This document shows positions 8,761 to 33,885 of a stretch of DNA of 64,000 bases, piece by piece. Source of the DNA: Abditibacterium sp. (GTDB taxonomy: Bacteria > Armatimonadota > Abditibacteriia > Abditibacteriales > Abditibacteriaceae). A model generated the notes under the pieces. The model saw nothing but the letters and a program-made list of their open reading frames with translations. It did no database searches and was not told the origin of the DNA. Position numbers and translations under genes: made by a program. The stretch covers positions 1,493,005 through 1,557,004 of the forward strand of contig CBDHBZ010000008.1 of NCBI GenBank assembly GCA_965260925.1, in the 5' to 3' direction. Position 1 is the stretch's first letter. Each line of letters begins with the position of its first letter.

Positions 8761-8854
8761 GTTCGTGGTGGCGTCGCAAGACGCGTCCGAATAATACGAT
8801 GCTTACAAGAGAAGGTTACGTTGCTCAAACGCGTCTTGCGACGCCACTACGAAC
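8761..8854. repeat. Nested inverted repeat, GTTCGTRGTRGCGTCGCAAGACGCGT family
   Basis: 26-nt arms at 8761-8786 and 8829-8854 with one G:T mismatch. Each arm contains the mini-hairpin GCGTC-GCAA-GACGC. Confidence 0.85.
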
Positions 8855-8857
8855 TGT

Positions 8858-9322
8858 TTACGGCGACGGTAGGCGCACAACGGTGAACCAAAACGTTTCG
8901 ATGGCTTTGACGACCTGGGCGAACTGCTCGAAATCGACCGGCTTACTGACGTAGCAGTTGGCGTGCAGGCCGTAGGCGCGCAGAATGTCTTCTTCGGCTT
9001 TGGAGGTCGTCAAAACGACGACGGGAATGCGTTTGAGCGCCTCGTCATTTTTGATCTCTTCCAAAACTTCGCGCCCGTCTTTGCGCGGCAAATTGAGGTC
9101 GAGCAAAATCAGGTCGGGCCGCTCCATTTCGGAGAACTCGCCCTCGCGCCGCAGAAACTGCATCGCTTCGACGCCATCGGAAACGATGTGCAATGTGTTG
9201 AGAACTTTGGCGTGTTCCAGCGCCTCTTGCGCCAGCAAAACGTCGGTCGGCGAGTCCTCGACTAAAAGAATATCTACAGGTTTGATGTGCCCTCCATTGG
9301 GAAAACTTTCGTGGTGCAACAT
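8858..9322 (-). CDS. Single-domain CheY-like response regulator
   Basis: [15 protein letters not shown]...[19 protein letters not shown]...IPVVVLTTS...SKP. Confidence 0.9.
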
Positions 9323-9360
9323 AAGTAATTTACCTCAAATGACGCGCAATGCCGTCGCGC

Positions 9361-10632
9361 CTAACTTTTAATTTCGCCGGACTCCGCAACTAAAGCGCGC
9401 ATGCCCGCGCGGCGGTCGGGCAATCCGAAGTATCTTAACTGCTGAGACAGGTTGCCAAAAATAATTTTTTCATCGCCCCAGACTCCATCGGTTTCCGCGA
9501 GCGCACGCGCAACTGCGCGTTGCGCGCCCTCTAATTTCGCCCACGAAACCGGCGCTTCGCGGCTGAAATCGCCAAAATAAAGCGGGCACAACGATTCGAT
9601 CAACTCCAACGCCGCGAACTCGTTGTTTGCGCGCCGCAACAGCGCGACAAATGCGGGCGTGTAGCGCCGCGCCGCCGTTCCCAGCGCCAAAAGTTGTCCC
9701 AGGCTCGCAGCGCCCAAACCTTCCTCGAAATGCGGCAACTGACCAAACGATCGCTGTCTCGCCTCATTTTCCTCCAGCGAATCGAGCAGCACGCGCGCCG
9801 CCGCATCACGCGCCGCCGCATCGCGCGCCGCCGCATCGCGCTCGGATTCCGCAGATTTCAGGCGCAAAACCAGCGCGCTCAAAGCCCAATGTTCCAGCGT
9901 CCACGCGGATTTTTGTGCCTGGCCATCCCGAAACGCGTCTTGAGTCGAAGCCGAATCTTCATCCGAGGGCGCGACATAAAACCAGCCCATCCACAACGCG
10001 GCGCGCGTGGCGTCGTCGGTTTCGGATTCTAATTTCTCGCGGCGCGCGGCGGCGACTTCGGGGTTGAATTTGCCAAACAGCGACGCCAGATAAATCGCGC
10101 GCACGCGCAATTCGTCGGACTGCCATAGTTCCAAATACTGCGCGACGCCCGCGCGCACCGCCTGGTGCGCGGCCTCGACATCGTTTAATTCGCGCGCGAT
10201 CTGCGCCTGAAATTCCGGCTCGTCGCGCTCCTCGTAGATGCCCATGTGCTGATGCACGTCGTGATACGAATGGCCAAACGCCAGCGACACCAACAATTCC
10301 ATGATTTCGGCGCGAACTGGGCTGAGTTCATCCGCCAATATCTGCCGCAAAAACGGCACTGCGTAACGCGTCGCCTGGTAAGTCGTGCCCTGATGCCAGA
10401 TGTTGCCGTAAAACTCGTGTAGCGCTTTTTCGCCGCGCTCGCGGTCGCGCGAAGCCAAAGCGCGCAGTTGGCCGGGCACATCTTTGGCGCTGCCGTAAGC
10501 GTGCTGCAATTCGGCCCAATTGATGTCGCTCAAACCTTCCAACGTCAAGGCGTCGGTTGCGGACGCGTCGGCTTTAGACGCGTCGGCTGAGTTTGCGGCG
10601 AAAACCTCGCGTAATTTGCGCGTCCAACTCAC
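9361..10632 (-). CDS. Helical-repeat (HEAT-like) protein of unknown function in the two-component operon
   Basis: Long ORF. The proposed start is GTG 10632, overlapping the upstream kinase stop (GTGA). The Arg-rich first 68 aa of the listed ORF are an alternate-frame reading of the 24-bp repeats. Confidence 0.45.
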   Translation of the reverse strand: MSWTRKLREVFAANSADASKADASATDALTLEGLSDINWAELQHAYGSAKDVPGQLRALASRDRERGEKALHEFYGNIWHQGTTYQATRYAVPFLRQILADELSPVRAEIMELLVSLAFGHSYHDVHQHMGIYEERDEPEFQAQIARELNDVEAAHQAVRAGVAQYLELWQSDELRVRAIYLASLFGKFNPEVAAARREKLESETDDATRAALWMGWFYVAPSDEDSASTQDAFRDGQAQKSAWTLEHWALSALVLRLKSAESERDAAARDAAARDAAARVLLDSLEENEARQRSFGQLPHFEEGLGAASLGQLLALGTAARRYTPAFVALLRRANNEFAALELIESLCPLYFGDFSREAPVSWAKLEGAQRAVARALAETDGVWGDEKIIFGNLSQQLRYFGLPDRRAGMRALVAESGEIKS

Positions 10633-12227
10633 GCCGTCACCGCCGCTTTCGCTTCGCTTTGCCCTGGAACGTGGCTGGTATCGGCGCCTGGAACGTGGCT
10701 GGTATCGGCGCCTGGAACGTGGCTGGTATCGGCGTCCGCGATGTGTTGCGGCAGCGAAAACCAGAAGGTCGCGCCTTCGCCGGGCACGCTTTCCACGCCG
10801 ATGGTGCCGCCGTGGCGCTCGACGATTTTTTTGCAAATCGCCAGGCCGATGCCGGTTCCGGGGAACTCGGTGCGCGTGTGCAAGCGCTGGAACATCACGA
10901 AAATGCGCTCGAAGTATTGGGCTTCGATGCCCAGACCGTTATCGCGCACGGAAAAAACGTGTTGCGGCGCTTCGCTCATCGCGGTTTTGCCGGCGGCATC
11001 GGGCGCGCTCAGAACGCGGCGCAGTTCGTAGCCAATGTGAACGAGGGGGTCGGTTTCGCCCCTGAATTTGAGCGCGTTGGAAACCAGATTCTGCAAGACC
11101 AACTCGATTTGTCCGGCATCGCCCCAAACGTCGGGCAAGGCGTCGCGCGCCACTTCCACGCCGGTCTCGCGGATGCGTTCGCTCAGATTGCGGAGCGCGT
11201 AATCGGCGGTTTTTTCCATCGAAACCGGCGCGAACTCTTTGCCGTGCGTGCCGACGCGCGAGTAGGCCAACAAATCGTTGATGAGGTTTTGCATGCGCTG
11301 GGCGCCATCAACGGCGTGTTCGATGAACTGGTCGGCGCGCGCGTCCAATTTGCCGCCGTAGCGTTTTTGCAAGACCTGGACGCAACCCGCCACGGCGCGC
11401 AATGGTTCTTGCAAATCGTGCGAGGCGACGTAGGCGAACTGCTCCAATTCGGCGTTGGAGCGTTGCAAATCTTGGACGGCGGATTCGAGTTTCTCTTCGG
11501 CGGCGCGGCGCTGTTCGTTTTCGGCTTCGACTTCGGCCTTGGCGCGCCGCAGTTCCACGTTGTTGCTTTCCAGATTCGATTGCGCCTGCGCGACCTGCGA
11601 AGCTGTGCGCGCGGCGAACAAGGCCAGTGCGCCCGTCAGCAGAATCGAGAACAGGCCGCCGCCCCACAAAATCGATTCAAAGGTGGCGCGCCGCTGTTTG
11701 ACCTGATCGGCGCGCGCCGTTAGCAGGATATCCTCCTGTTTTTCGACGCGCAGAATGACGCCACGCATTTCGTCCATCGCCATTTTGCGTTCGTTCGCGC
11801 GCAGGCTGGCGGTGGCGAGCGCCTCTTGCAGGTTTTGCGCGCCGCGCCGCCGCTCGATGGCCGGTTGCAACATGGTAGAGTTCCACTTTTGCTGCAAACG
11901 TTGCAGTTCGTCGAGGCGCACGATTTGTTCGGGCGATGTCGCCATCAAAACGCGCGTTTTGCCCATGTGCGTCTCGAAGTTGGCGCGGCCCGAATCGTAG
12001 GGATCGAGAAACGGGTCTTCGCCAGTGACCAAAAACCCGCGCACGCCGGTCTCCATGTTGAGTAGCGATTGCAAGAGCGCCTCGCTCTCGAAAAGCGTCT
12101 GGTAAGAGCGCGTGCTATAAGCGCTCGCCTGGCCGAGCAAACGGAAATTGTAGAGCGACAGCCCGACCAAAAAAAGCAGGAGCGCCAGCAACAATCCAAA
12201 GCTGCGGTAAAGGGATTGAGGATTCAT
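10629..12227 (-). CDS. CHASE3-type sensor histidine kinase with a C-terminal DTSHVPGA x3 tail
   Basis: N-terminal TM segment; LLNMETGVRGFLVTGEDPFLDPY (CHASE3-like); coiled coil; H-box ASHDLQEPLRAV; GTGIGLAICKKIVERHGG. The tail is encoded by the 3 x 24-bp repeat. Confidence 0.85.
   Translation of the reverse strand: MNPQSLYRSFGLLLALLLFLVGLSLYNFRLLGQASAYSTRSYQTLFESEALLQSLLNMETGVRGFLVTGEDPFLDPYDSGRANFETHMGKTRVLMATSPEQIVRLDELQRLQQKWNSTMLQPAIERRRGAQNLQEALATASLRANERKMAMDEMRGVILRVEKQEDILLTARADQVKQRRATFESILWGGGLFSILLTGALALFAARTASQVAQAQSNLESNNVELRRAKAEVEAENEQRRAAEEKLESAVQDLQRSNAELEQFAYVASHDLQEPLRAVAGCVQVLQKRYGGKLDARADQFIEHAVDGAQRMQNLINDLLAYSRVGTHGKEFAPVSMEKTADYALRNLSERIRETGVEVARDALPDVWGDAGQIELVLQNLVSNALKFRGETDPLVHIGYELRRVLSAPDAAGKTAMSEAPQHVFSVRDNGLGIEAQYFERIFVMFQRLHTRTEFPGTGIGLAICKKIVERHGGTIGVESVPGEGATFWFSLPQHIADADTSHVPGADTSHVPGADTSHVPGQSEAKAAVTA
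10664..10735. repeat. 3 x 24-bp tandem repeat derived from the dispersed CCAGCCACGT element
   Basis: CTGGAACGTGGCTGGTATCGGCGC repeated at 10664, 10688 and 10712 (last base of the third copy differs). Confidence 0.95.
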
Positions 12228-12451
12228 GGGAAGCAGAAGTTAAAAGTCAGGAGTCAGGAGGTAGAACAGAACATTGGAGCATATTATTTATGGCGATTCC
12301 GAAAGGCGATGTCTTCGCTCGCGGTTCGCAGAGGACTCCACTCATCGGATTCGCTTTGACTTCTGTCTCCTGACTTCTAACTCCTGTCGCTACAGTTTGA
12401 CAAGTCGCGCCCCAATTGCGAGGGTATGGCCAAAGGGCTTAACTGAAACCA

Positions 12452-13054
12452 ATGGATTCCTCCCAATCGAAACCCGCTCAGACGCTCGCCGGGGCGCCAA
12501 TTATCGTCGGCATTTGCGGCAGTTTGAGCGCCGACTCGACCACGCGCCGCGCCTTGAAATTGGCTTTGCAGGCCGCCGAAAATGCGGGCGGCCAGACTTC
12601 GCTGATCGATCTGCGCGACCTCAAATTGCCGTTCGCTTCGAGCGATTGGGACGCGGCCGATTATCCCGACGCCGAGAAATTGTTAGCTGCCGTGCGCGGC
12701 GCCGACGGCCTGTTGTGGGCGACGCCCGAATATCACGGGTCGTATTCGGGCGCGCTCAAAAACGCGCTCGATCTGGGCGATATTCCCGATTACGACGGCA
12801 AAGTCGTGGCGCTTTTGGGCGTGGCAGCGGGTTCGATTGGCGCGATCCAATCGCTATCGCATCTGCGCGGCATCGCGCGGCAGTTGCACATGTGGGCGGT
12901 TCCCTCGCAACTCTCCATCGCCCAATCTTACGCGGCTTTCGACGAAAACGGCGCTTTGAAAGACGCGAAGTTGGCGGCATCGCTGGAAAAGATGAGCGCC
13001 GAATTAGTCAGATGGAGCGCGGTTCATCGTTCTGTGAACAGTTCCGTGGGTTGA
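12452..13054 (+). CDS. NADPH-dependent FMN reductase family protein
   Basis: IIVGICGSLSADSTTRRALK...LLWATPEYHGSYSGALKNALD. The last 5 codons and the stop lie inside the left arm of repeat 13040-13230. Confidence 0.8.
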   Translation: MDSSQSKPAQTLAGAPIIVGICGSLSADSTTRRALKLALQAAENAGGQTSLIDLRDLKLPFASSDWDAADYPDAEKLLAAVRGADGLLWATPEYHGSYSGALKNALDLGDIPDYDGKVVALLGVAAGSIGAIQSLSHLRGIARQLHMWAVPSQLSIAQSYAAFDENGALKDAKLAASLEKMSAELVRWSAVHRSVNSSVG

Positions 13055-17991: not shown

Positions 17992-18003
17992 GTTTTGCGT
18001 TTT

Positions 18004-18099
18004 GTAGAGACACCGATTTATCGTGTCTAAAACTTAAATGAACTCGTTACTTTTTGCGGGTGCCGCAACGTTTTAGACACGATAAATCGGTGTCTCTAC
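18004..18099. repeat. Perfect 30-bp inverted repeat (hairpin-in-hairpin element)
   Basis: GTAGAGACACCGATTTATCGTGTCTAAAAC (18004-18033) and its exact complement (18070-18099). Each arm is itself a hairpin (AGACAC..GTGTCT). Confidence 0.9.
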
Positions 18100-18118
18100 G
18101 GGATGCAAAAACCGAAAT

Positions 18119-19501: not shown

Positions 19502-19615
19502 CGTTGCGATTGTGATGTTCTGCGGGGCTGACGCCCTCTTCCAATCGGTAAAGTTCCTCGATATTCCGCCGATTGGAAGAGGGCGTCAGCCCCGCAGAAC
19601 ATCACAATTGCGACG
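19502..19615. repeat. Long hairpin element (47-nt arms), copy 1 of the family that brackets the RT module
   Basis: Arms at 19502-19548 and 19569-19615 (two G:T positions). Its core GTTCTGCGGGGCTGACGCCCTCTTCCAATCGG resembles that of the 27473-27588 copy. Confidence 0.9.
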
Positions 19616-19651
19616 AATCTGAACTGTTAAATAAAACTCTGACGATGCAAC

Positions 19652-21070
19652 TCACCGCGCCAGCCACGGATGCGTGCCCACCAACTTTTCGGCGCGCGCG
19701 GCATCGCTCATGGCGATCCAGGCGATCATGCCGCGCGCGTAGCCCAGCGAATCGCGCCCGATCTGCGCGCTCATTTGGTCGGCGCCCAACTGTTCGTAGC
19801 GATGCAGAAACGCGCGAAACCGCCGCAAATCGGCGCGCGAAACGCGCGGACTCGCGGCGTCCTGCGCGTTGACGACCAAACCCGTCACGACTTGCCGCAT
19901 ATTCGGGCGCATCACGGCGGTTTTCTCGTCGTTGACGACGAACTTCTCGTCGGCCACAACGCGCCGCGTCAGGCCGATGAGTTTGTTCACATCGGCGCCC
20001 GAATCGCTGGAAAATACCAGGTCGTCGGCGTAACGCGAGTAAACGAAACCCAGAGTCGCGGCGATTCCGCTCAGCCGTGCATCCAAGCGGCGGCACAGCA
20101 AATTAGTCAACGCGGGCGAAGTGCAGGCGCCTTGGGGCAAGGCGCGTTCGCCGACGGCGACGTAACGTTTGGTCGCGTCCAGAGTCAGTTCGACGCGCGG
20201 CGCTTCGGTCGCCAAAAGCGCCAGCATGGTGGCGATGCCCTCGTTATAGCCGAAATTCTCGAACTGCCGTTTGACGCGTTTGAAGCCGATGGACGGAAAG
20301 AAATTTTTGAGGTCTATGCGCACCACGACCGATTTTCCCAGGTGCCGACCCGCGTTTTCGACGACGTTGGCGCCCGCCACAAACGCCGTAGCGGCATCGT
20401 GAATCGGCAACGGCGCCAGAATGCTTTCCAGCAACCAACTCTGAGCGCGGCGCAGTTTGGTTTTGGGCGACGAAACGTTGCGCATTCCGCCGCGCTTTTT
20501 CGGGATCTGAAAGCGATGATAATGATCGATTGAAGAAGCGCCGCGATGGTAACAGAGCCACGTCAGTTCGGGCGCGGGGATGCCGATCGCCGCCGCCAAA
20601 TCGGCGGGCGTTTGCAATGCGGGCAAACCCAAACGCTCGCGTTGCGCGTCGTTGCCGCCTTCAAATTTCAGGCCCTGAGAAACGCCGTGACCCAAAAATT
20701 GCGGTTCGTTGGCGCGTTTGGTTTTCCACAGTTCGGCGTTACGCGCGGCCTCGACTTTGTGGCGTTCGCGGCGTTCTTCGCGCGCGGCTTTGACGCGCGC
20801 GATGCGGCGCGCGCGAATCTCGTCGAGGGCGGTTTGCACGTCGGCGGTTACAGCGATGGCGGCTTCGACGAGGGTGAGTTCGAGGCGTAGCGGCGCGACT
20901 TCGCGGTCGAGCCGCGCGACTTCGCGCTCGGCAATTTCGACTTGTTCTTGCAAGCCTTCGGGCGGCGGCCAAAATCCCAGACGGCGCATCTCGGCCATCT
21001 CGAAAGCCTCTTTGCCTTCGGCTTTGATGCGCGCGCGCCAATCGGTGGGAACGGATTCGTTTTCTGCCAT
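19652..21070 (-). CDS. Retron-type reverse transcriptase with an N-terminal coiled-coil extension of about 145 aa
   Basis: LGLPALQTPADLAAAIGIPAPELTWL...IPKKRGGMRNVSSPKTKLRRAQSWLLESIL; VVENAGRH (NAxxH); RIDLKNFFPSI; LPQGACTSPALTNLL; SRYADDLVFSS; RQVVTGLVVN. Residues 1-145 are Glu/Arg/Ala-rich helix. Confidence 0.85.
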   Translation of the reverse strand: MAENESVPTDWRARIKAEGKEAFEMAEMRRLGFWPPPEGLQEQVEIAEREVARLDREVAPLRLELTLVEAAIAVTADVQTALDEIRARRIARVKAAREERRERHKVEAARNAELWKTKRANEPQFLGHGVSQGLKFEGGNDAQRERLGLPALQTPADLAAAIGIPAPELTWLCYHRGASSIDHYHRFQIPKKRGGMRNVSSPKTKLRRAQSWLLESILAPLPIHDAATAFVAGANVVENAGRHLGKSVVVRIDLKNFFPSIGFKRVKRQFENFGYNEGIATMLALLATEAPRVELTLDATKRYVAVGERALPQGACTSPALTNLLCRRLDARLSGIAATLGFVYSRYADDLVFSSDSGADVNKLIGLTRRVVADEKFVVNDEKTAVMRPNMRQVVTGLVVNAQDAASPRVSRADLRRFRAFLHRYEQLGADQMSAQIGRDSLGYARGMIAWIAMSDAARAEKLVGTHPWLAR

Positions 21071-21095
21071 GATTTTTAGGATTTATCTTGCGCTC

Positions 21096-21110
21096 CCGTG
21101 CTCCGCACGG
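21096..21110 (-). promoter_or_regulatory. Conserved intercistronic mini-hairpin upstream of the RT start
   Basis: CCGTGC-TCC-GCACGG followed by AATACGCA, about 26 nt upstream of ATG 21070. A near-identical motif lies at 23122-23140. Confidence 0.3.
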
Positions 21111-21120
21111 AATACGCAAC

Positions 21121-23103
21121 TCAACCTTCCAGCATTTCCTGGAATTCTGCTTCGGTCAAAACTTGAACGCCCAGCAGTTTGGCTTTGACCAATTTGCCGC
21201 CCGCTTTATCGCCCGCGACCAGATAATCCAAATTTTTCGAGACGCCGCTCGCCGCCTTGCCGCCACGTTGTTCGACCAAGCTCTGCGCCTGATCGCGCCC
21301 ATAAATCGTTAGAGTTCCGGTGAAACAGAACGATTTACCCGCGAACTGTTGCACGTCGAAACTCGCGCCCGCGCTTTTGCTTTTGGACGTGGCTGCTCTC
21401 AAACCCGTGACGCGCGCCGAAGCCAATGCCGTCGCCGACAGAATGTGGGCGCACGGGCCTTTCTTGAGTTTGTCGCGCCGAAAATCGGCGCACGAACACT
21501 GCGCGAACGGCACGCGCCCGTCGGCATCAACGTCAACCGTGACGTCGAACTTGGCCTGGTTGCGCGTCGAACCGCGCGCGTCAACCGTGGAAACCTGCGC
21601 TTCCAAACGCGTCAAACCGGCGCGCAAGCCGAAATCGTTGTCTTCGTCGGCCTCTTTCCACTTGACGCCGCCCGCCGCCACGATGCGCCGCGCCAACTCG
21701 ACTTTCGGGTCGCGTTGCCCCGCCAGCGCCTGCGCGCCCGGTGGCAACAATTTGCGCCAACGGTAAAACTCGCCGATCGGATCGAACATCGCGTCGCCAT
21801 CGCGGCAGATCTGCTGCAAAGCCGCCGTCGCCGTTTCGCGCGATAGATCCGAGCGCGCCGCGAGGGCTTGCGGCGTCAGTTTGAGCGCGCTTTCCAGTTG
21901 CCCGCGCGCCAGTTCGATGTCGCCCGCCGTGACCGGCGCCGTGGCTGCTAACAAGTCGAAGCGCGCCGCGCTCGACCAGTCGTTTTTCGTCCAACCGCTC
22001 AGCCCGACATCGAAGCGATGCCCGCCCGCTTCGACGCTCCAAAAGTGCGGCATTCCGCTGCCCAGCAAACGCACCTGGACGGTTTCCGAGTAAGCCAACA
22101 GCGACTCGATGGAAAACAAGCGGCGCCGTCCCCACACGCGAACGGTCGTTGATTCGCCCTGAAAAACGTGATGGTGTTCGGCGATTTCGATGTTCCACGG
22201 CTCCAGAACGATCTTCGGATTGGCGCCGTTTGCTAATTCAAAACGGATGGCGCGCGGCGATTCTTTCTCGCGGTCGCGGCGCAAAATCATCAACAGTTCG
22301 GCCACGGTCGAAGCGCTCAAAGTCAAATCGATGCCCGGCAGCGTCGAGGCCGATTGCACTTGCAAAAAGCCGCGCACCCAGGAGGGCGGCAAGTCGATCT
22401 TCTTTTCCAGACGCGCGCCCGCGTCGGTGCCGATGCTAACGCCGCCGCCTTCGACGCTCAGCCTTGCCGGACGATAAGAACGAACGCGCCGAATTTCGTC
22501 GGCCAAGGCCGCCGAGAAGTCCACGTTGGTGGTGCCAAACACGGTTTCGCCCTCGGTTTGCAAGTTGTCGGCGGCGACGGTGACGCGACCGTAAGAGCTT
22601 TCGTCCTGCGAAAAAACCTCGAAAATCGTGGCGTCGGGATGAACGGAAACGACCGGATCGAGGATGACCCACAACGCGAAATCGCGCGAGTAAAGCCATT
22701 TCCAGTAGCGCCGCTTGGCCTCCCACAATTGCGCCGAACCCAACTTGCTGCGGTGCGGCGCGGCTTCGTCGTTCAGCGATTTGAGTTGCGCGCGCAACGC
22801 TTCGCGCCGCGCGTTTTGCGCGGGCAATTCGTCGCGGCGCGCTGCCAGTTCGGGCGCCAGTTCGCGCATATATTCGCCGCGCACCCATTCCTGGTAGGCG
22901 CTGTGATCTTTGGCGGCGAAGCGCAAATCGGAGCCGACGACTTCAAATAAAGCCAGCATCGCGCGCGCGTAAGCGGGCGAGTTTTTGATCGTCGCGTGCA
23001 AACGCACGGCGGGGCGGCCCTGCTGCGCGGCGAGCGAAAACGCCATCGCGTCGCCGACATCAGCCACGCCGGAGGGCTTCGCGTAAGTTTGAGTGATCCA
23101 CAT
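21121..23103 (-). CDS. SWIM zinc-finger protein with a C-terminal BRCT domain
   Basis: SWIM CxC...CxH: FAQCSCADFRRDKLKKGPCAHILSA (about 21445-21510). BRCT resembling that of LigA: FAGKSFCFTGTLTIYGRDQAQSLVEQRGGKAASGVSKNLDYLVAGDKAGGKLVKAKLLGVQVLTEAEF (about 21124-21360). The start is set at ATG 23103 (MWITQTY). Confidence 0.75.
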   Translation of the reverse strand: MWITQTYAKPSGVADVGDAMAFSLAAQQGRPAVRLHATIKNSPAYARAMLALFEVVGSDLRFAAKDHSAYQEWVRGEYMRELAPELAARRDELPAQNARREALRAQLKSLNDEAAPHRSKLGSAQLWEAKRRYWKWLYSRDFALWVILDPVVSVHPDATIFEVFSQDESSYGRVTVAADNLQTEGETVFGTTNVDFSAALADEIRRVRSYRPARLSVEGGGVSIGTDAGARLEKKIDLPPSWVRGFLQVQSASTLPGIDLTLSASTVAELLMILRRDREKESPRAIRFELANGANPKIVLEPWNIEIAEHHHVFQGESTTVRVWGRRRLFSIESLLAYSETVQVRLLGSGMPHFWSVEAGGHRFDVGLSGWTKNDWSSAARFDLLAATAPVTAGDIELARGQLESALKLTPQALAARSDLSRETATAALQQICRDGDAMFDPIGEFYRWRKLLPPGAQALAGQRDPKVELARRIVAAGGVKWKEADEDNDFGLRAGLTRLEAQVSTVDARGSTRNQAKFDVTVDVDADGRVPFAQCSCADFRRDKLKKGPCAHILSATALASARVTGLRAATSKSKSAGASFDVQQFAGKSFCFTGTLTIYGRDQAQSLVEQRGGKAASGVSKNLDYLVAGDKAGGKLVKAKLLGVQVLTEAEFQEMLEG

Positions 23104-23121
23104 AATGTGATTTGGATGGTT

Positions 23122-23140
23122 TTCCGTGCGGAGCACGGAA
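23122..23140 (-). promoter_or_regulatory. Conserved intercistronic mini-hairpin upstream of the SWIM-BRCT start
   Basis: TTCCGTGC-GGA-GCACGGAA followed by TCGCA, about 19 nt upstream of ATG 23103. Confidence 0.3.
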
Positions 23141-23147
23141 TCGCACG

Positions 23148-26100
23148 CTAAATTGCGCCGACCCCACTGACTTCTACGCCCGCGATTTCGCTTTCCAAAG
23201 CGCGCCGCGCCAACTGTTGCAGCGCCCATTCGGCGTCGCGCGGCGTTTTGCCGCGCGCCAACTCCAACAAAGTCGCGTCATCGGGCAAAGGCGCGCTTTG
23301 GCTACGACGCGTTTGCACCAAATTCTTGGCGCGCCGCGCCCGATTGCGCCCGCGCAAAACCGCGCGGTCGAACTCGATTGGCGCCGTTTCGGCATCACGC
23401 TCCAACAGCAAATTTGCCACGAAACCCTGCATTTCGGCGTTGGGATTCTCTTCCAATTTCGCCAACAAACCGTCGCCAATTAAATCATCCAAACGCGCGC
23501 CGACGAACTCGCGTCCATACTGGCGGGCGCGTAAACGCGGGCTGTCGCACAATGCCAGCGCCAGATTGGCAATGTTTTCCTCGCGCGACTCGAACCAAAC
23601 TTTCGCCGCGTCCATCGCGTCGCGCAAATCCGATTCGAGTAAGCGCAACGCGATCGGCACGGTCAAACCGCGCGCGACCAGACCGCTCAAACCGATCGCG
23701 CGCACGGCGGGTAACGGATGAATCGCGGCTTCGATCAAAGTTTCGGCGTCCAGTTCGCGCGCGCCCAGCCAGAGGGTAATCAGCGATTCGAGTGAGGGAT
23801 CGTCGAACTGCGTCACGTCGCTTTCCAGCATCCCAAAAGTCGCGGCGAACTCGGCATCGTCAATTAAACGCCCGCGCAAAAAACCGCCCGCAAACCCTTG
23901 CGAGCGCGCCGCTTCCCAGAACGCTTCGCGGCGGGCGGCGTCGGTTTTTAGCACTTGCAGAAGGGCGTCGCGCCACAACAGCCACACGGCTTCGGGCACA
24001 CTGGCGATAAGGCTCAGCAGCAACGCGGGCGCGAGTTGTCCGGCGGCCCCGGCGAAAGTCGCGGCGATAACGGGATCATCGAAGGTGCGCGCTCGCAACT
24101 GTTCGGCGCCCTCTTTTTTGGCGTCGAGATATTGCTGAACCGCGCCCCAAAACTGCGCGCCAATCGCCGGATGCGGCGCGATGGCGGCGACGAACCCGGT
24201 TTTCCATTCGCCCCAACGTGCATCGGTCAAATCGGCAATTGTTTTCACCGTCACTTCGGCGGGCAAAAACAGCGCGTAGGCGCCGAAAACTTCGCCCGGC
24301 ACGCCCGCGTTGGTGTAGTAGGCGCCCGCTTCGCTGCCCGCAAACTCGCCGCTCCAACGCGGGCGCACTTCGCGCCAATCCAACTCGCCGCGCACCAGAG
24401 CGGCGCGCGCATCGGCATCCGAAAGCGCGCTTTGCAGCGCATCCGAAATGCGCCAATTGACCGTGCGCGCGTTCCAATCGTAGCTTTGCGTCAGGCCGCG
24501 CAGCAAACTCAGCCAGACCGCGCCCAGCGTCGCGCTTTTGGTGCGCGATGCCGCCACCAACTGCCACGCCACAACGCGCGCCTCGCGCGATGGGGCGCGC
24601 ACGGCTTTGTCGATCTGTTCTTTATCGAAATCGGCGCGCGAGGCGCTTTCTAAGAGCGCTTCCAACACGGCGGCGTTGTTTAGAGCGAACGGAATCAGCG
24701 GCAAAACCTGCGCGGCGCTCAGGCGGCGACAAAACTGCGCGCCCAACGATTTGAGCGGCGCTTCGCTCGAATTCAGCAGCGCGCGCAACGCGGGCAACGC
24801 GCCGTCAGCGCGAAATTCGGGGTTCGACAAATCGAAGCGCGCCGCCAACAACAGCGCCAGTTCGCGCCCGCGCCGCGTCAGCGATTGAACCGTCATGCGG
24901 CGCCCAAATTTGTCGCGTTCAATCGGCAAGGATGCGCCCAGAAAATTCGCCAGTTCGCTGGCGATTGCGGGCGAAGGTTGGGCGCGCTCCAACAACGCGC
25001 GGCGCTTCAGCGGGTTCGACGCGGCGATGGCGCCCGCAACGGCGCGCGGCGAAAGCGCCGAAACGTCGCTTTCCAGAGCCGCGCGCGCGCCGATCACGCG
25101 CAGATCAGGCCAATTGGACGCGACGTAACTCTCGATTTGTGCCGCCGATAGCCGGGACGTGGCTGCTGTCGCCTGCCGCGCCAAATGCACGACGGGCGCC
25201 GTCACGCTATTTTCAACCAGCGAATTTAATTGCTCTGGATGCAAATTCCACGCGTCGGACGCGCGCTCGACGCGGCGCTTGACGACGAGCGATTTCGCGT
25301 TATAAAGATAGGCGCCGCGCCCGTGCGAAGCCTGATGCCAGTTCGGATGATTGGCGGCGACCAAATCGGCGGCGATCCAATTGTTGTCCCAGTCGAGATT
25401 GGGTTTATCGGCAATCTCCGCGAAAAACGCGCTCGCCAGAGCCGTGAATCCGTCGGCGTCGGATCGGGACAAATCGCGCAGCAAACGTCGCCCGCGCCGC
25501 TTCATATAAGCGAAAGTTTTCGGATCGGGCGCTTTGCCGATTTCCTGAATGGTTTTCGGATCGGAAACATCGAGCAAACGCAAGCCCGCGCGCGTGCCCA
25601 GATAAAGCGTGTCGCCCGCTAATGCCAGCGACGAAACTTCGTTGTAGCGCGCCGAACCGAAATCGTATTCGCCCGTAATCGACGGATTCTTGGGATTGGA
25701 CAGATCGAGCAAGCGGATTTTAGTGGCGAAACTGCCGCGATTCCAAGTCTGGCAAAAAACGGCGGCGCGATCCGCTTCGCACGCGAGGAAGCTCGCGCCT
25801 TCCACTTTTAGCTTGCCGATTTGACGCGGATTATCCAAATCGCTCAAATCGTAAGTAAATAATTCGTTGTTAGAAAAGCTCAACCAGAAGTCGCCGCACG
25901 GCTGCAAAACCGAGGCGTAATCGGTGGGCAACTTGCCCGCCAAACGCGGATTGGCCGCGTCCGATAAATCGGCGAAATTCAGTTCGTAAGTCGCGCCACG
26001 CCGCCCGTAATTATAGGTCATCGCCGCCGCGAAATTCGGCCCACCGATCAAACCGTAATAAGTTTGGACGAACTCGCCACTGCCGACCTCGATCAAACTT

Positions 26101-26684
26101 CCGTCGCGCACTTCGCTCACGCGCAGCGTTGCGCCGTCCAGACTGATGATGCGTTCGCCCGCGATCGCCGTGCCGAAAGTGTTCTGCTTGAACTCGCCAT
26201 CTAATGCGGGCGTGGAGGGGTTTTCTACGTTCAAACGCCAGACTTTGCCGCCGCTACGCAACCACAAATAGCCCGCCGAAACTTCCAGTCCGACCGGTAT
26301 CGGATCGGTTAAATCGGGCGACCAAACCGAAATTAATTGCGGCTGGGCGGGCGCGCTCAAATCGTAGGTTTGCAGTTCGCGCCCGCGCGACCAAAGGTAG
26401 GCGAAACCACCAGCCACGTTCAAAGCGCCGAAACTGCCCGCGACGGCGACATCGGCGCTTTTACCGATAGTTTCCAGCGGTTGCTCATCTATGCGCGCCA
26501 ACAATGCCGCCACGATTTCGGGTTCGCGCGCACCATTACGATACGCGGCTTCGGCCTCTTTATAGAGGCGTTTGAAACCCTGCCAGGGGCCGTAAACCAA
26601 GGGCGCCGCGCGAATCCAATCGAGCGTCGCGGCGCGCGTGGCTGCATCGGCGGGCGGAAACGAGGGCGGCGTGAAATTGGACAT
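23148..26684 (-). CDS. 1178-aa protein: N-terminal helical segment, beta-propeller-like repeat region, long ARM/HEAT-like helical C-terminal part
   Basis: Six spaced strands of the type x-DLS-x-P-x-x-P: YDLSAPAQPQ, LNVENPSTPA, ADLSDAANPRL, YDLSDLDNPRQ, LDLSNPKNPSI, LDVSDPKTIQ (LVIVD-like). Residues about 420-1178 are Leu/Ala-rich helical repeats with no catalytic motif recognised. Confidence 0.7.
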   Translation of the reverse strand: MSNFTPPSFPPADAATRAATLDWIRAAPLVYGPWQGFKRLYKEAEAAYRNGAREPEIVAALLARIDEQPLETIGKSADVAVAGSFGALNVAGGFAYLWSRGRELQTYDLSAPAQPQLISVWSPDLTDPIPVGLEVSAGYLWLRSGGKVWRLNVENPSTPALDGEFKQNTFGTAIAGERIISLDGATLRVSEVRDGSLIEVGSGEFVQTYYGLIGGPNFAAAMTYNYGRRGATYELNFADLSDAANPRLAGKLPTDYASVLQPCGDFWLSFSNNELFTYDLSDLDNPRQIGKLKVEGASFLACEADRAAVFCQTWNRGSFATKIRLLDLSNPKNPSITGEYDFGSARYNEVSSLALAGDTLYLGTRAGLRLLDVSDPKTIQEIGKAPDPKTFAYMKRRGRRLLRDLSRSDADGFTALASAFFAEIADKPNLDWDNNWIAADLVAANHPNWHQASHGRGAYLYNAKSLVVKRRVERASDAWNLHPEQLNSLVENSVTAPVVHLARQATAATSRLSAAQIESYVASNWPDLRVIGARAALESDVSALSPRAVAGAIAASNPLKRRALLERAQPSPAIASELANFLGASLPIERDKFGRRMTVQSLTRRGRELALLLAARFDLSNPEFRADGALPALRALLNSSEAPLKSLGAQFCRRLSAAQVLPLIPFALNNAAVLEALLESASRADFDKEQIDKAVRAPSREARVVAWQLVAASRTKSATLGAVWLSLLRGLTQSYDWNARTVNWRISDALQSALSDADARAALVRGELDWREVRPRWSGEFAGSEAGAYYTNAGVPGEVFGAYALFLPAEVTVKTIADLTDARWGEWKTGFVAAIAPHPAIGAQFWGAVQQYLDAKKEGAEQLRARTFDDPVIAATFAGAAGQLAPALLLSLIASVPEAVWLLWRDALLQVLKTDAARREAFWEAARSQGFAGGFLRGRLIDDAEFAATFGMLESDVTQFDDPSLESLITLWLGARELDAETLIEAAIHPLPAVRAIGLSGLVARGLTVPIALRLLESDLRDAMDAAKVWFESREENIANLALALCDSPRLRARQYGREFVGARLDDLIGDGLLAKLEENPNAEMQGFVANLLLERDAETAPIEFDRAVLRGRNRARRAKNLVQTRRSQSAPLPDDATLLELARGKTPRDAEWALQQLARRALESEIAGVEVSGVGAI

Positions 26685-26709
26685 GACTTTTCAATCGAAT
26701 AGCAGGGGG

Positions 26710-26815
26710 ATTTCACACAAAGGAACCACACAAAGGAACAAAGATCGCACAAAGAGTAAGAAGAAAATAAAATGTTCAACTCTCTTCTTCCCCTTTGTGA
26801 GTCTTTGTGTGAAAT
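26710..26815. repeat. Inverted repeat with an AT-rich centre, immediately upstream of the 1178-aa gene
   Basis: ATTTCACACAAAG (26710-26722) pairs with CTTTGTGTGAAAT (26803-26815). CACAAAGGAAC is repeated internally. Confidence 0.7.
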
Positions 26816-26841
26816 GCCCAAGCTCAAATTTCAACTGCGAT

Positions 26842-27118
26842 TCTGAACCGGCGATGGGCCGAACTCGGCGAAACAGAAGGCGCCACAAAACAAGAGGAGA
26901 CCGGCGGCGTTCACTGTAGCAATTGGCGTAGCCCTCTTGATTGGCGGCCCGTGCGCACGCGGACTCAGCGCGGTGACGCGAATCGAGAGGGCTACGCTAA
27001 TTGCGAAAACGCAACGGCGTGCCGGTGACGTATGACGGGCTTAACTTCAACCGCGACGAACCATCGCAGAAATGCTGGCCACTTTCTGAGTTCGCAGAGC
27101 CGTCCCATCGCCGGTTCA
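26842..27118 (-). ncRNA. Candidate structured RNA unit A (retron msr/msd-like layout); strand not proven
   Basis: Outer 15-bp stem TGAACCGGCGATGGG (26844-26858) / CCCATCGCCGGTTCA (27104-27118). Conserved 26-mer AGGAGACCGGCGGCGTTCACTGTAGC (26895-26920). Unit-specific hairpin at 26921-27002. Conserved ~75-nt block at 27003-27077. Confidence 0.4.
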
Positions 27119-27162
27119 AAAACGGCGAGAAATCGAGCAAATTAAAAATTTAACCAAACGAA

Positions 27163-27383
27163 ACGAGCGAGTTTTCACTTAACAAAAGGAGACCGGCGGC
27201 GTTCACTGTAGCGATATACGCAGTAGTGCGGCGCACCCGCCCATGCGTTTGCGGACTCAGCGTGGTGCGGGTGCGCCGCACTACTGCGTATATCGCGAAA
27301 ACGCAACGGCGTGCCGGTGACGTGTAACGAGCTTGACTTCAACCGCGACGAATCATCGCAGAACTTGCTGAAAACTCGCTCGC
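27163..27383 (-). ncRNA. Candidate structured RNA unit B (retron msr/msd-like layout); strand not proven
   Basis: Outer 13-bp stem CGAGCGAGTTTTC (27165-27177) / GAAAACTCGCTCG (27371-27383). Identical 26-mer at 27187-27212. Perfect 28-bp unit-specific hairpin at 27213-27294. Conserved block at 27295-27369. Confidence 0.4.
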
Positions 27384-27401
27384 CTCGTTCGGTTGCATTC
27401 A

Positions 27402-27430
27402 ATCTTAACCGATGTGGCGCGGCTTCACAA
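27402..27430 (-). promoter_or_regulatory. Weak candidate promoter reading into unit B
   Basis: On the minus strand: TTGTGA (27430-27425), a 17-nt spacer, TAAGAT (27407-27402), about 20 nt before the outer stem of unit B. Confidence 0.2.
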
Positions 27431-27472
27431 GGGGTAGTGAAAACATTTTTGGATGGGATCGTTGTATGACAT

Positions 27473-27588
27473 TTGAAGCACATGAACGTTCTGCGGGGAG
27501 GTCGCCCTCTTCCGATCAGGATAAGTTCCTCGACAGCGCGCCCGATTGGAAGAGGGCGACCTCCCCGCAGAACGTTCATGTGCTTCAA
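27473..27588. repeat. Long hairpin element (45-nt arms), copy 2 of the family that brackets the RT module
   Basis: Arms at 27473-27517 and 27544-27588 (one G:T). The core GTTCTGCGGGGAGGTCGCCCTCTTCCGATC and the loop motif TAAGTTCCTCGA are shared with 19502-19615. Confidence 0.9.
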
Positions 27589-27700
27589 CTGCCGAATTAG
27601 CGTTCAAAGTGCAACAGCTTCCGGATACGCGGGGCACAGTTTTCCTCAATTCGCGCGTTTTGCGAGAGGCGATTTAGGCTAAAATTCACTTGGTTTTCTC

Positions 27701-32553: not shown

Positions 32554-33885
32554 ATGCCCAAACTCCGCGCTTCCCGCCGCGCCCGCGTTTTCTGCGCGGG
32601 CGTCGTTGCGAGCGCGGGTTTATGCGGCGGCTGTTCGGTGATGCCGCCGATTCCGAAAAACGTTCCGGCCAGCGAAATCGCTGCCGACCAAAAAGCCGCC
32701 GCCGCGCGTTCGCGCTCGCTGGAGAAAACCGTGTCGGGCATCAACGCGCAAACCGTGCGCGATTGGGTCGATCGTTATACGGCGCCCAAAAACGCGGTGC
32801 CCGTCAAAGCCGGGCCGCGCGAAATTTCGATCGATATAGACGCGCTCGCGCGCCGTCATCTCGCGTGGCAACTCGCCGATAAGTTGGGGCGCGACGCCAT
32901 CGCGCCCACTCCCGCGCGCCAGTTGCAGATTGATGTGCCCGCGTTACGCGCGCCCGGCACAGCAGCCACGTCCAACGGCCGAAATGGTTTGCGCCTGCCG
33001 GACGTGGCTGCATTGCCCATCCGTCCGGCGCGCGGCCTGAGCGCCACGGTCAGCCAGCGCCCGGCGATCGTGGCCAGCCGCGCGACGTTGGACGATTTCT
33101 TGACCGACCTACGCGCGCGCCAGAACGATTTGGAAGCCGCCGAATCCGAACTGGCGCGCCGCGCTTTAGAAGACCGCATTCGCGCTTCGACGCGCGGCGC
33201 GGTCGAAGCGATTTCGTTGGCGCCGGTTGCGCCCGAAACCGCGCTCGAACTTTCCAATCTGCGCCTGCAACTGCTCGCCCAACTGAGCGTGCCGCGCGCG
33301 CAAAAAGCCGCCGCCGCCGCTAAAATCGAGGCCATCGAAAAACGCTTGAACGAAATTTGGGAAGCCCAGACCGCCGCGCAAAACGCGCGTCTGCGCGCCG
33401 CTTTCGAGGAGTTGCCCGCGAGACTACGCCGCGAGGGTTTGCAGGCCCTCGATGCCGCCGCCGTCAAACGCGATTCGGAGCGCTATTACGCGCGCCTGGA
33501 ACTGCGCGGCCTCATCGAAAACCGCTTGAATGGCGCGCAACCGGGCGCCGACGACATTCAAATCCTGCGATTGTTGCTGCCGCGCGCGCGCGTGGCGACG
33601 ACTGATCTGAGCGTGGGCGGAAACAGTTCTTTCCAAACAAAGGCGCGCCGCGCCGCGTCTGCCCTGGCGAAGACAAACGATGGATTGCGCGATGCCCGCG
33701 ACGCGCGCCCGCTCAGCACAAGCGGAAGTTTCGACGGCCAATCCGCAGCGCAATTGCGCGCCCAGGCGCGCCGCGACGCGCGCCAGTGGGCCAGCAAATT
33801 GGCGCTGAGCTGGGGCGCTCAACTGTCCGAAAAAGCGAGCGCGCCCGACCGCACGAATTTGGCGATTGCCAAACTGTTCGGCTAA
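32554..33885 (+). CDS. Ala/Arg-rich coiled-coil lipoprotein of unknown function
   Basis: Lipobox-like ...SAGLCGGCS. Low-complexity helical sequence. Contains an in-frame degenerate copy of the dispersed hairpin (32962-33011). Confidence 0.5.
   Translation: MPKLRASRRARVFCAGVVASAGLCGGCSVMPPIPKNVPASEIAADQKAAAARSRSLEKTVSGINAQTVRDWVDRYTAPKNAVPVKAGPREISIDIDALARRHLAWQLADKLGRDAIAPTPARQLQIDVPALRAPGTAATSNGRNGLRLPDVAALPIRPARGLSATVSQRPAIVASRATLDDFLTDLRARQNDLEAAESELARRALEDRIRASTRGAVEAISLAPVAPETALELSNLRLQLLAQLSVPRAQKAAAAAKIEAIEKRLNEIWEAQTAAQNARLRAAFEELPARLRREGLQALDAAAVKRDSERYYARLELRGLIENRLNGAQPGADDIQILRLLLPRARVATTDLSVGGNSSFQTKARRAASALAKTNDGLRDARDARPLSTSGSFDGQSAAQLRAQARRDARQWASKLALSWGAQLSEKASAPDRTNLAIAKLFG

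What the first reader, a model, noticed from the sequence alone, without database searches (positions are those of the whole stretch)
19502..27588. Retron-type RT operon with a giant propeller/ARM protein and a SWIM-BRCT protein: a candidate uncharacterised RT-based system
Three minus-strand genes are separated by spacers of only 45-50 bp: 26684->23148 (1178 aa), 23103->21121 (660 aa) and 21070->19652 (472-aa RT). A ~1 kb non-coding leader with two structured units precedes them.

The RT carries the retron-specific motif set: NAxxH (ENAGRH), LPQGACTSPALTN, YADDLVFSS and VTGLVVN. Its segment LGLPALQTPADLAAAIGIPAPELTWL...IPKKRGGMRNVSSPKTKLRRAQSWLLESIL aligns by eye with the N-terminus of classical E. 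coli retron RTs.

None of the three proteins shows a recognisable effector such as a nuclease, TIR, protease or pore. From memory, the Mestre et al. 2020 retron classification includes a rare, experimentally uncharacterised class (type XIII) built from an ARM-repeat protein, a winged-helix-SWIM protein and an RT with an N-terminal extension. This locus looks like a member or divergent relative of that class. I cannot verify that here.

Features I do not associate with any described system are the BRCT fusion, the beta-propeller insert, the duplicated ncRNA units and the bracketing hairpins.
Basis: partly seen in the sequence, partly recalled or inferred. Interest (0 to 1): 0.9.

Follow-up and report, generated by a model that had tools for sequence, protein, structure and literature searches.

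The report
Type XIII retron with tandem ncRNAs
This is a retron of the known type XIII class (the family of the classical Myxococcus Mx162 retron) in an Abditibacterium genome, notable for two tandem template RNAs with different stems and for an accessory protein whose predicted core looks like a DNA sliding clamp fused to a ligase-type BRCT domain.

Summary
Three minus-strand genes (1178, 660 and 472 aa; spacers 44 and 50 nt) follow a ~0.9-kb leader with two structured units.

PADLOC models assign all three proteins to retron type XIII: RT_XIII 4e-149, SWIM_XIII 4e-162, HEAT-ARM_XIII/WGR_XIII ~1e-20. It includes Mx162, Mx65, Sa163 and Ne144, whose msDNA has been demonstrated.

The two leader units are complete retron ncRNAs, each with its own a1/a2 duplex, an msr hairpin and a ~35-bp msd stem. 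Covariation across 31 units from 24 loci supports the fold.

- BRCT fusion: fixed across Armatimonadota relatives. BRCT and WGR also occur in other type XIII proteins.
- Propeller plus HEAT: already present in a known HEAT-ARM_XIII model.
- Bracketing hairpins: one of several dispersed palindrome families in this genome, and not part of the retron.

Two points appear new:
- Natural tandem ncRNA arrays (2-3 units) recur. Their msr and tail are conserved but their msd stems have diverged strongly.
- The "DEDE" core of the SWIM protein is predicted to adopt a PCNA-like clamp fold.

Verdict: new variant of a known kind. Its biological function is still unknown.

The parts
19652..21070 (-). Retron reverse transcriptase (472 aa) with a ~140-aa N-terminal extension
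   Evidence: PADLOC RT_XIII 4.3e-149, aligned over residues 4-466. Pfam RVT_1 2e-23. Best PDB sequence match is the retron Ec86 RT, 6e-35. NAxxH, YADD and VTG motifs are present.
21121..23103 (-). SWIM_XIII accessory protein (660 aa): N-terminal helical region, predicted PCNA-like double clamp domain, winged helix, SWIM zinc finger, BRCT
   Evidence: PADLOC SWIM_XIII 3.6e-162 over residues 2-559. In alignment A1 these residues are invariant: D149, D157, E162, D195, E233 and C536/C538/C551/H553.
21994..22656 (-). Predicted PCNA-like clamp-fold core (about aa 150-370), which contains the 'DEDE' motif
   Evidence: AF2 model, pLDDT 66-93 in this region. All top 50 Foldseek PDB hits are sliding clamps, E 7e-9 to 3e-7, TM(target) mostly 0.57-0.67 for PCNA chains, lower (0.31-0.46) for beta-clamp chains. 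The BFVD search gives viral PCNA and beta clamps.
21133..21348 (-). C-terminal BRCT domain of the LigA/RFC1 class (aa 586-657)
   Evidence: Pfam BRCT 5.2e-9. NCBIfam matches only the C-terminus of LigA. The PDB profile search gives LigA BRCT 1e-20 and RFC1 BRCT 1e-13.
23148..26684 (-). Large scaffold protein (1178 aa): 3-helix head, beta-propeller (aa 85-382), alpha-solenoid HEAT/ARM (aa 388-1004), conserved C-terminal region
   Evidence: PADLOC HEAT-ARM_XIII 1e-20 and WGR_XIII model 5e-20, HEAT part only. AF2 model. Foldseek gives propeller-plus-solenoid scaffolds such as IFT-A, nucleoporins and clathrin.
27147..27399 (-). Retron ncRNA unit 1 (msr-msd): a1 27372-27399, candidate branching G 27368, msr hairpin, msd hairpin 27211-27296, a2 27147-27177
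   Evidence: Inverted repeats I9 and I4. RNA fold z = -11.95. Covariation on A2. The DNA strand of msd folds with z = -9.8.
26838..27124 (-). Retron ncRNA unit 2: a1 27080-27124, candidate branching G 27075, msd hairpin 26919-27004, a2 26838-26883
   Evidence: Inverted repeats I14 and I10. RNA fold z = -5.6. nhmmer 5e-50. RNAduplex between the flanks -69.5 kcal/mol.
27402..27430 (-). Probable promoter of the ncRNA array: TTGTGA (27430-27425), 17 nt, TAAGAT (27407-27402), ending just 5' of a1
   Evidence: Read from the sequence. It is conserved at the same place in L001, L003 (TATAAT) and L090. The strict consensus scan did not call it.
26712..26813 (-). Imperfect hairpin between the ncRNA array and the first ORF, a possible attenuator or terminator
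   Evidence: DNA fold z = -4.8. The same position in L001, L007 and L091 carries a hairpin followed by a T-run.
27470..27591 (.). Upstream bracketing palindrome, adjacent to the retron but probably not part of it
   Evidence: 51-nt arms, z = -16.9. No counterpart upstream of the L001 retron promoter.
19502..19615 (.). Downstream bracketing palindrome of the same repeat family, probably not part of the retron
   Evidence: 47-nt arms, z = -14.8. An 81% identical copy lies in an unrelated intergenic site of L001, 20629-20702.

Best explanation
The locus is a complete, intact type XIII (Mx162-like) retron of an Abditibacterium species.

Step 1. A conserved promoter drives an RNA carrying two tandem retron ncRNA units. 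The structure is shown by covariation.

Step 2. Each unit closes with its own a1/a2 duplex. It presents a conserved msr hairpin and a ~35-bp msd hairpin.

Step 3 (inferred by analogy with Mx162 and Ec86). The RT primes on the 2'-OH of the conserved G in the AGC triplet next to a1 (27368 and 27075). It copies msd into two different msDNAs of roughly 120-150 nt. These share a basal stem and an apical GCTGAG loop but have unrelated stem sequences.

Step 4 (inferred from operon conservation and the coevolution published for type XIII). The msDNA-RT particle associates with the two accessory proteins. The propeller/alpha-solenoid protein acts as a scaffold. The SWIM protein is the DNA-handling subunit.

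Step 5 (my own inference, about 0.35). The core of the SWIM protein is a PCNA-like clamp module that grips the sequence-variable, length-constant msDNA duplex. The winged helix and SWIM finger read the conserved loop and base. The LigA/RFC1-type BRCT senses a 5'-phosphate DNA end or nick. WGR takes the place of BRCT in a sister clade.

Step 6 (about 0.5). The output is most likely phage or foreign-DNA surveillance, as in other retrons. A domesticated DNA-metabolism role is nearly as likely.
For: - Family assignment of all three proteins.
- RT motifs are intact.
- Gene order is conserved in Abditibacterium, Capsulimonas, Armatimonadaceae and metagenome loci. An RT follows the SWIM gene in 48 of 51 loci.
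- ncRNA structure: 89.9% of cells are paired, against 30-55% for slid controls. 18 of 24 pairs carry double changes, and 0 of 500 shuffles reach the observed score.
- Every one of 32 units has its own flanking duplex and a main stem of 19-38 bp, median 35.
- The distance from the msr hairpin to TACAGTG is constant at 147-150 nt.
- Clamp fold.
- BRCT class. WGR in place of BRCT in L038, L039 and L045.
- Literature: type XIII contains Mx162 and related retrons and shows RT-accessory coevolution (PMC7736814). Engineered ncRNA arrays are served by a single RT (PMC10370050).
Against: - No msDNA has been observed for this organism.
- The clamp similarity rests on one AF2 model (mean pLDDT 69.7, pTM 0.47, 24-sequence alignment). 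It has no sequence support: hhalign against PCNA gives probability 0.2.
- Five invariant acidic residues (the DEDE motif) fit a catalytic site better than a passive clamp.
- No toxic effector domain was found and the neighbours are housekeeping genes. This does not fit the usual defence-island picture.
- The msd stems match no phage in the collection searched.
Confidence: 0.82

Rival explanations
1. This is a standard abortive-infection retron. The SWIM protein is a DEDE-type (transposase-derived) nuclease toxin. RT-msDNA holds it in check and phage infection releases it.
For: Mestre et al. proposed the Dx7Dx4Ex30-32Dx37E motif as nuclease- or transposase-like. All five acidic residues are invariant in 24 sequences. 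Most characterised retrons work this way.
Against: The region holding the motif is predicted as a clamp fold, not an RNase H-like fold, and no nuclease appears among 471 Foldseek hits with E<1e-3 that were inspected at the top. There is no defence-island context. Type XIII has been reported as largely vertically inherited.
Confidence: 0.3
2. This is a domesticated, vertically inherited retron with a housekeeping role in DNA repair or replication, not in immunity.
For: The domains are typical of repair and replication: PCNA-like fold, LigA/RFC1-type BRCT, and WGR in relatives. The neighbours are housekeeping genes. The system is present across a whole phylum-level lineage, with identity tracking taxonomy. 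Mestre et al. noted a correlation with 16S.
Against: The neighbourhood differs between genera. msd stems turn over fast between close relatives: arms are 46-50% identical while flanks are 95-97% identical. That pattern looks like an arms race. ncRNA copy number also varies.
Confidence: 0.3
3. The two hairpins mark the ends of a mobile cassette, or are functional insulators or terminators belonging to the retron.
For: They are the only two copies of this core in 64 kb and they flank the module exactly. Relative to L001, the retron block is inverted with respect to neighbouring genes.
Against: The L001 retron lacks them at both ends, and L001 carries a related copy elsewhere. The window holds at least 15 other long intergenic palindromes in several families. 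L001 has unrelated 190-bp palindromes inside the operon spacers. No integrase or transposase gene is nearby. Neither hairpin is followed by a T-run.
Confidence: 0.07
4. The RT belongs to a group II intron, a DGR or an Abi/UG system rather than to a retron.
For: Weak sub-threshold hits to group II (53.5 bits) and to Drt2/3/4 models.
Against: Those scores are far below the cut-offs (300, 390, 200, 450). RT_XIII scores 495 bits. Rfam finds no intron RNA. No TR/VR pair reaches into a coding gene. A canonical msr-msd structure is present.
Confidence: 0.01

Closest known systems
Retron type XIII (RT clade 10; Retron-Mxa1/Mx162, Mxa2/Mx65, Sau1/Sa163, Nex2/Ne144; Mestre et al. 2020)
   Same: - RT with an N-terminal extension.
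- Cluster-114-type protein with the DEDE motif, a winged helix and a CxCx12CxH SWIM finger.
- HEAT/ARM accessory gene upstream of the SWIM gene.
- ncRNA with a1/a2, an msr hairpin and a long msd stem.
- Non-island genomic context.
   Different: - A BRCT is fused to the SWIM protein.
- An LVIVD-type propeller replaces the WGR-like head on the HEAT/ARM protein.
- The ncRNA lies upstream of the first accessory gene, about 5.6 kb from the RT gene, rather than next to it.
- There are two ncRNA units instead of one.
Engineered 'multitron' ncRNA arrays (Gonzalez-Delgado et al. 2023, PMC10370050)
   Same: Several msr-msd units lie in tandem on one transcript and are served by one RT, each giving its own RT-DNA.
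   Different: The arrays here are natural. Each unit has its own a1/a2 sequence. The stems differ while the loop and base are conserved. 2-3-unit arrays recur in at least three lineages (window and L001; L038, L039 and L045; L031).
PCNA / beta sliding clamps
   Same: The predicted two-domain beta-alpha-beta-beta-beta repeat fold covers a whole PCNA monomer (~245 aligned columns, TM up to 0.67). Conserved Arg-rich helices are present (RVWGRRRL, RRVR).
   Different: There is no detectable sequence homology. The module is embedded in a 660-aa multidomain protein. Ring formation is unknown. It carries five invariant acidic residues.
LigA / RFC1 / PARP1-class BRCT domains
   Same: Profile matches to LigA BRCT (1e-20) and RFC1 BRCT (1e-13). 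This class binds nicked DNA or 5'-phosphorylated DNA ends (established knowledge for the RFC1 BRCT structures 2K6G and 2K7F).
   Different: Here the domain is fused to a retron accessory protein. Its ligand is unknown.
Retron Ec86 (type II-A)
   Same: It is the closest solved RT (6e-35). The ncRNA logic is the same, including an AGC branch site next to a1/a2.
   Different: Its effector is a nucleoside deoxyribosyltransferase-like protein. Its msDNA is short. Its RT has no N-terminal extension.

Membership tests
Retron type XIII | RT belongs to clade 10 (RT_XIII profile) | tested here: met
   PADLOC RT_XIII 495.5 bits, E 4.3e-149, near full length. The next model scores 302.5 bits. No tree was built.
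Retron type XIII | Retron RT motifs NAxxH, YxDD and VTG | tested here: met
   ENAGRH, YADDLVF and VTGLVVN are in the translation.
Retron type XIII | Adjacent cluster-114-type protein with Dx7Dx4Ex30-32Dx37E, a winged helix and SWIM CxCx12CxH | tested here: met
   SWIM_XIII 538.5 bits. D149-x7-D157-x4-E162-x32-D195-x37-E233 and C536xC538x12C551xH553 are invariant. Weak HTH hits at 404-436 and a winged-helix-like segment at 393-449 in the model.
Retron type XIII | HEAT/ARM-repeat accessory gene preceding the SWIM gene | tested here: met
   HEAT-ARM_XIII 72 bits and WGR_XIII model 69.5 bits, both partial. Alpha-solenoid at 388-1004 in the AF2 model. The WGR-like head of cluster 216_1 is absent.
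Retron type XIII | msr-msd ncRNA with terminal inverted repeats, msr hairpin(s) and a long msd stem-loop | tested here: met
   It was not compared directly with the published type XIII covariance models, which were not available. Rfam gave only spurious miRNA hits.
Retron type XIII | Production of 2'-5' branched msDNA | not testable with these tools
   Needs nucleic-acid extraction or heterologous expression.
Anti-phage retron (tripartite toxin-antitoxin / Abi) | A recognisable toxic effector domain | tested here: not met
   Pfam, NCBIfam and PADLOC show no nuclease, TIR, protease, Toprim or transmembrane domain. Fold searches give a clamp and scaffolds.
Anti-phage retron (tripartite toxin-antitoxin / Abi) | Defence-island or mobile-element context | tested here: not met
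   The neighbours are GH26, an MFS transporter, a hybrid histidine kinase and ThiF/MoeB.
Anti-phage retron (tripartite toxin-antitoxin / Abi) | Protection against phage | not testable with these tools
   No experimental report for any type XIII retron was found in the library.
PCNA-like DNA clamp fold | Two tandem clamp domains (beta-alpha-beta-beta-beta x2 each) | tested here: inconclusive
   Met at the level of a predicted model only: Foldseek probability 1.0, TM(target) 0.57-0.67. No sequence signal.
PCNA-like DNA clamp fold | Ring-shaped oligomer encircling DNA | not testable with these tools
   Needs multimer modelling or an experiment.
Group II intron / DGR RT | Scores above the family cut-off, with intron RNA or a TR/VR pair | tested here: not met
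   TIGR04416 scores 53.5 bits against a cut-off of 300. No intron RNA. No TR/VR pair.

The most novel reading that the evidence does not exclude
The signature 'SWIM' protein of type XIII retrons, the class that includes the first retron ever found, is a PCNA-like DNA clamp module and not a DEDE nuclease. It is wired to DNA-end or nick sensors: a LigA/RFC1-type BRCT here, WGR in sister clades.

One RT serves natural arrays of two or three ncRNAs whose msd stems evolve rapidly while their length, loop and base stay fixed.

Together these would define a retron mechanism in which a clamp-like protein is loaded on, or gated by, a set of sequence-diverse msDNA duplexes. That mechanism would be distinct from the known toxin-sequestration retrons.
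Probability: 0.3. Interest if true: 0.8.

Novelty: new variant of a known kind. Interest (0 to 1): 0.5.

Why it matters
Type XIII is the founding retron family (Mx162, 1984). Within the literature searched, it is still the one major retron class with no demonstrated function, no solved accessory-protein structure and no recognisable effector.

This locus and its relatives offer three things:
- A compact, well-conserved version in a phylum that has a cultured representative, Abditibacterium utsteinense.
- A structural hypothesis for the signature protein (clamp fold plus DNA-end sensor) that replaces the motif-only nuclease idea and can be tested directly.
- Natural multi-ncRNA arrays. These show that one RT can serve several templates in nature, and that msd stem sequence is free, or under pressure, to change while the geometry is fixed. 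Both points are useful for retron engineering.

Tried and rejected
- Rfam scan of the region. The only hits were miRNA-precursor models below their gathering scores. These are artefacts of long perfect hairpins, so I rejected them.
- Strict sigma-70 and terminator scan. It found nothing in the leader. The promoter was identified by conservation instead.
- Idea that the msd stems act as guides matching phage DNA. blastn of both hairpins against 50,697 phage records gave one 25-nt chance-level hit (E 0.9) and nothing else. The idea is unsupported, though the database holds few phages of this phylum.
There was no signal, so the clamp similarity is at fold level only.
- PDB sequence searches for the SWIM core and the large protein. 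Only the BRCT matched.
- Look-up of P0012 to date the ncRNA duplication. It is not on record.
- Supplementary files of Mestre et al. are not held. I could not check whether Armatimonadota or BRCT variants were in their dataset.
- The 137-aa ORF at 27175-27588 is rejected as a gene. It overlaps ncRNA unit 1 and the palindrome.
- RNAalifold did not recover the long variable msd stem from the alignment, because of register shifts. I assessed that stem per sequence instead.
Full report
**Observation**

The three minus-strand ORFs exist as described. The RT runs 21070->19652 (472 aa), the middle gene 23103->21121 (660 aa) and the large gene 26684->23148 (1178 aa). The spacers are 44 and 50 nt. A longer ORF for the middle gene starts at 23229, but this is not the real start: all 23 aligned homologues begin at the methionine encoded at 23103. 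The quoted RT motifs are present. The region 26685-27469 is non-coding and holds two repeated units 292 nt apart. Two long palindromes flank the module.

**Identity of the proteins**

- PADLOC profiles assign the RT to RT_XIII (495.5 bits; next best 302.5).
- The middle protein matches SWIM_XIII (538.5 bits, residues 2-559).
- The large protein matches HEAT-ARM_XIII and the HEAT part of WGR_XIII.
- Pfam adds BRCT and SWIM to the middle protein and weak LVIVD/propeller signals to the large one.
- NCBIfam shows that the C-terminal 90 residues of the middle protein resemble only the BRCT end of NAD-dependent ligase. The RT falls far below the group II and Drt cut-offs.
- The motif that Mestre et al. 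use to define the type XIII primary protein is intact and invariant: D149-x7-D157-x4-E162-x32-D195-x37-E233 and C536-x-C538-x12-C551-x-H553 (PMC7736814).

**What the literature says**

Type XIII is RT clade 10 and contains Mx162, Mx65, Sa163 and Ne144. It was the third most abundant type, with the broadest phylum range, in a 2026 survey. It is therefore neither rare nor without experimental msDNA data. However, I found no paper giving it a function, a phage phenotype or a structure of its accessory proteins. I also found no paper linking retrons with BRCT or with sliding clamps.

**Host and conservation**

- The closest RT relatives are in Abditibacterium genomes: 83% identity in a chromosome-level MAG (L001) and 64% in A. 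utsteinense LMG 29911 (L003).
- The window's own proteins are in public assemblies on a 3.17-Mb contig, without names.
- More than 120 full-length SWIM-BRCT proteins (51-98% identity) come from Abditibacterium, Capsulimonas, Armatimonadaceae and soil metagenomes.
- The order large gene, SWIM(-BRCT), RT recurs in every sufficiently long locus.
- Among 51 loci with enough downstream sequence, 48 carry an RT within 1.5 kb on the same strand. BRCT is fused in 27 of 72 loci.
- The SWIM core family has 966 clusters at 50% identity with E<=1e-3, and 219 with E<=1e-30, among 1.84 billion representatives. The BRCT-fused forms collapse into essentially one cluster.

**The features thought to be unprecedented**

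BRCT. It is fixed in the Armatimonadota clade. It is also a Pfam-significant domain (24.3 bits, cut-off 21.3) in the first HEAT-ARM_XIII-type protein of a distant type XIII locus, L069. In a sister clade (L038, L039, L045), the SWIM protein instead carries WGR, with or without malectin, before the SWIM finger.

Propeller. The giant L069 protein matches PADLOC HEAT-ARM_XIII model PDLC02919 at 2122 bits and contains a WD40 propeller plus HEAT repeats. Propeller plus solenoid is therefore already within the known accessory repertoire. Here the propeller is of the LVIVD type.

Type XIII is evidently a platform on which BRCT, WGR and propeller modules are shuffled.

**The ncRNAs**

- Each leader unit folds into the canonical retron shape.
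- An HMM built from eight units finds one unit upstream of the large gene in most related loci. It finds two in the window, L001, L038, L039 and L031, and three in L045.
- Among 39 loci with at least 5.2 kb upstream, the counts are 16 with one unit, 4 with two, 1 with three and 18 with none detected. The 18 are the 33-36% identity group that this HMM cannot reach.
- Loci at 70% and 64% SWIM identity have one unit. The window/L001 duplication is therefore recent, and the other arrays arose independently.
- Every unit has its own a1/a2 duplex abutting a conserved (A/G)GC triplet at the 5' side and AAGTG at the 3' side.
- On an alignment of 31 units, the a1/a2 stem, the msr hairpin and the basal msd stem are 89.9% paired, against 30-55% for slid controls. 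18 of 24 pairs show double substitutions, and no shuffle of 500 reaches the observed covariation.
- The distance from the msr hairpin to the invariant TACAGTG is 147-150 nt in eight units from six loci.
- The msd main stem has a median of 35 pairs.
- Within arrays, msr (79-95% identity), tail (91-97%) and often the apical loop (with invariant GCTGAG) are conserved, but the stem arms are only 21-57% identical.
- Between the window and L001, unit 2 has flanks 95-97% identical but stem arms only 46-50% identical. The stems therefore turn over much faster than anything around them while keeping their length and pairing.
- The DNA strand that the RT would make also folds as a long hairpin (z = -9.8 and -5.7).
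- The stems match no phage in the collection searched.
- Engineered arrays of this kind are known to work with one RT. I found no description of natural ones.

**The hairpins**

The two bracketing palindromes belong to one family. However, L001 has none at its retron borders and carries a related copy in an unrelated intergenic site. The window contains at least 15 other long intergenic palindromes in several families. L001 has different ~190-bp palindromes inserted in both operon spacers. I conclude they are dispersed REP/MITE-like repeats and not retron parts. The short CCGTGC...GCACGG hairpins in both window spacers may be related footprints. I did not resolve this.

**Structure predictions**

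SWIM-BRCT model (mean pLDDT 69.7; 66-93 over residues 150-370):
- Against the PDB, the top fifty hits are exclusively sliding clamps: archaeal, eukaryotic and viral PCNA, and bacterial beta. E ranges from 7e-9 to 3e-7, with ~245 aligned columns and TM(target) of 0.57-0.67 for the PCNA hits. 471 hits have E<1e-3.
- Against BFVD it gives viral PCNAs, phage beta clamps and herpesvirus processivity factors.
- The secondary-structure order of residues 258-368 is beta-alpha-beta-beta-beta twice, as in a clamp domain.
- There is no sequence-level support, so this remains a prediction.
- It conflicts with the motif-based idea of a transposase-like nuclease.

BRCT. The BRCT profile matches LigA and RFC1 BRCTs. 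This is the class known to bind nicks and 5'-phosphate ends.

Large protein. It is predicted as a helical head, a propeller (85-382), a solenoid (388-1004) and a conserved but low-confidence tail. It resembles generic propeller-solenoid scaffolds.

**Context**

The neighbours are housekeeping genes. No integrase, transposase or defence gene adjoins the module.

**Conclusion**

The locus is a bona fide type XIII retron, a known kind, in a lineage-specific architecture.

I rate the identity and msDNA-producing mechanism at about 0.9. I rate the proposed role of the SWIM protein as a clamp-like msDNA/DNA-end binding subunit at about 0.35. An immune role and a domesticated role are roughly even.

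The points worth follow-up are the natural ncRNA arrays with fast-evolving stems and the predicted clamp fold.

Noticed in passing
window 2118-6816 (+): A polymorphic-toxin locus. It holds a 1004-aa protein with a PT-HINT domain and a C-terminal Endonuclease_NS_2 toxin, an ankyrin-repeat protein (likely immunity), and an orphan PT-HINT plus EndoU-like cassette. The block 1504-7540 is absent from the syntenic region of L001 and has lower GC, 0.51-0.53.
   Followed up: partly
window 51724-51811, 53760-53838, 8761-8854; 57015-57103, 48641-48711, 7376-7445, 51585-51652, 32956-33017; 17993-18110; 1952-2053; 38194-38292: Several families of long (26-49-nt arm) intergenic palindromes. This indicates a genome rich in REP/MITE-like hairpin repeats.
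   Followed up: partly
L001 7525-7700 and 9745-9950: Both intergenic spacers of the orthologous retron operon carry ~190-bp palindromic insertions. In the window the same spacers are 44-50 nt with a small CCGTGC-NNN-GCACGG hairpin.
   Followed up: partly
L003 3600-3810 (A. utsteinense): Four to five direct repeats of ~ATTCCACAAAAAATGAAG, spaced ~55-60 nt apart, lie immediately upstream of the retron ncRNA promoter. They may be regulator-binding iterons.
   Followed up: no
L045 6128-6994; L038 6465-6985; L039 6191-6758: Arrays of three, two and two ncRNA units. Each unit is preceded by its own TATAAT-like box. They sit upstream of a type XIII operon whose SWIM protein carries (malectin-)WGR instead of BRCT.
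   Followed up: partly
L069 217-9944: A distant type XIII locus with two accessory genes. The first is a ~1090-aa HEAT-ARM_XIII protein containing a BRCT domain. The second is a giant protein (ORF of 2844 aa; the model match starts at residue 757) with a WD40 propeller plus HEAT repeats.
   Followed up: partly
L090 2230-2320: The msd hairpin of this single-unit orthologue has a poorly complementary 3' arm. This may reflect decay or an assembly variant.
   Followed up: no
window 1-13029 versus 19652-27449, compared with L001: The retron block is inverted relative to the neighbouring conserved block when compared with L001. This suggests a local rearrangement in one lineage.
   Followed up: no
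L033, L035, L082: SWIM_XIII homologues with no RT detectable within the fetched flanks, the 3 exceptions among 51 loci.
   Followed up: no
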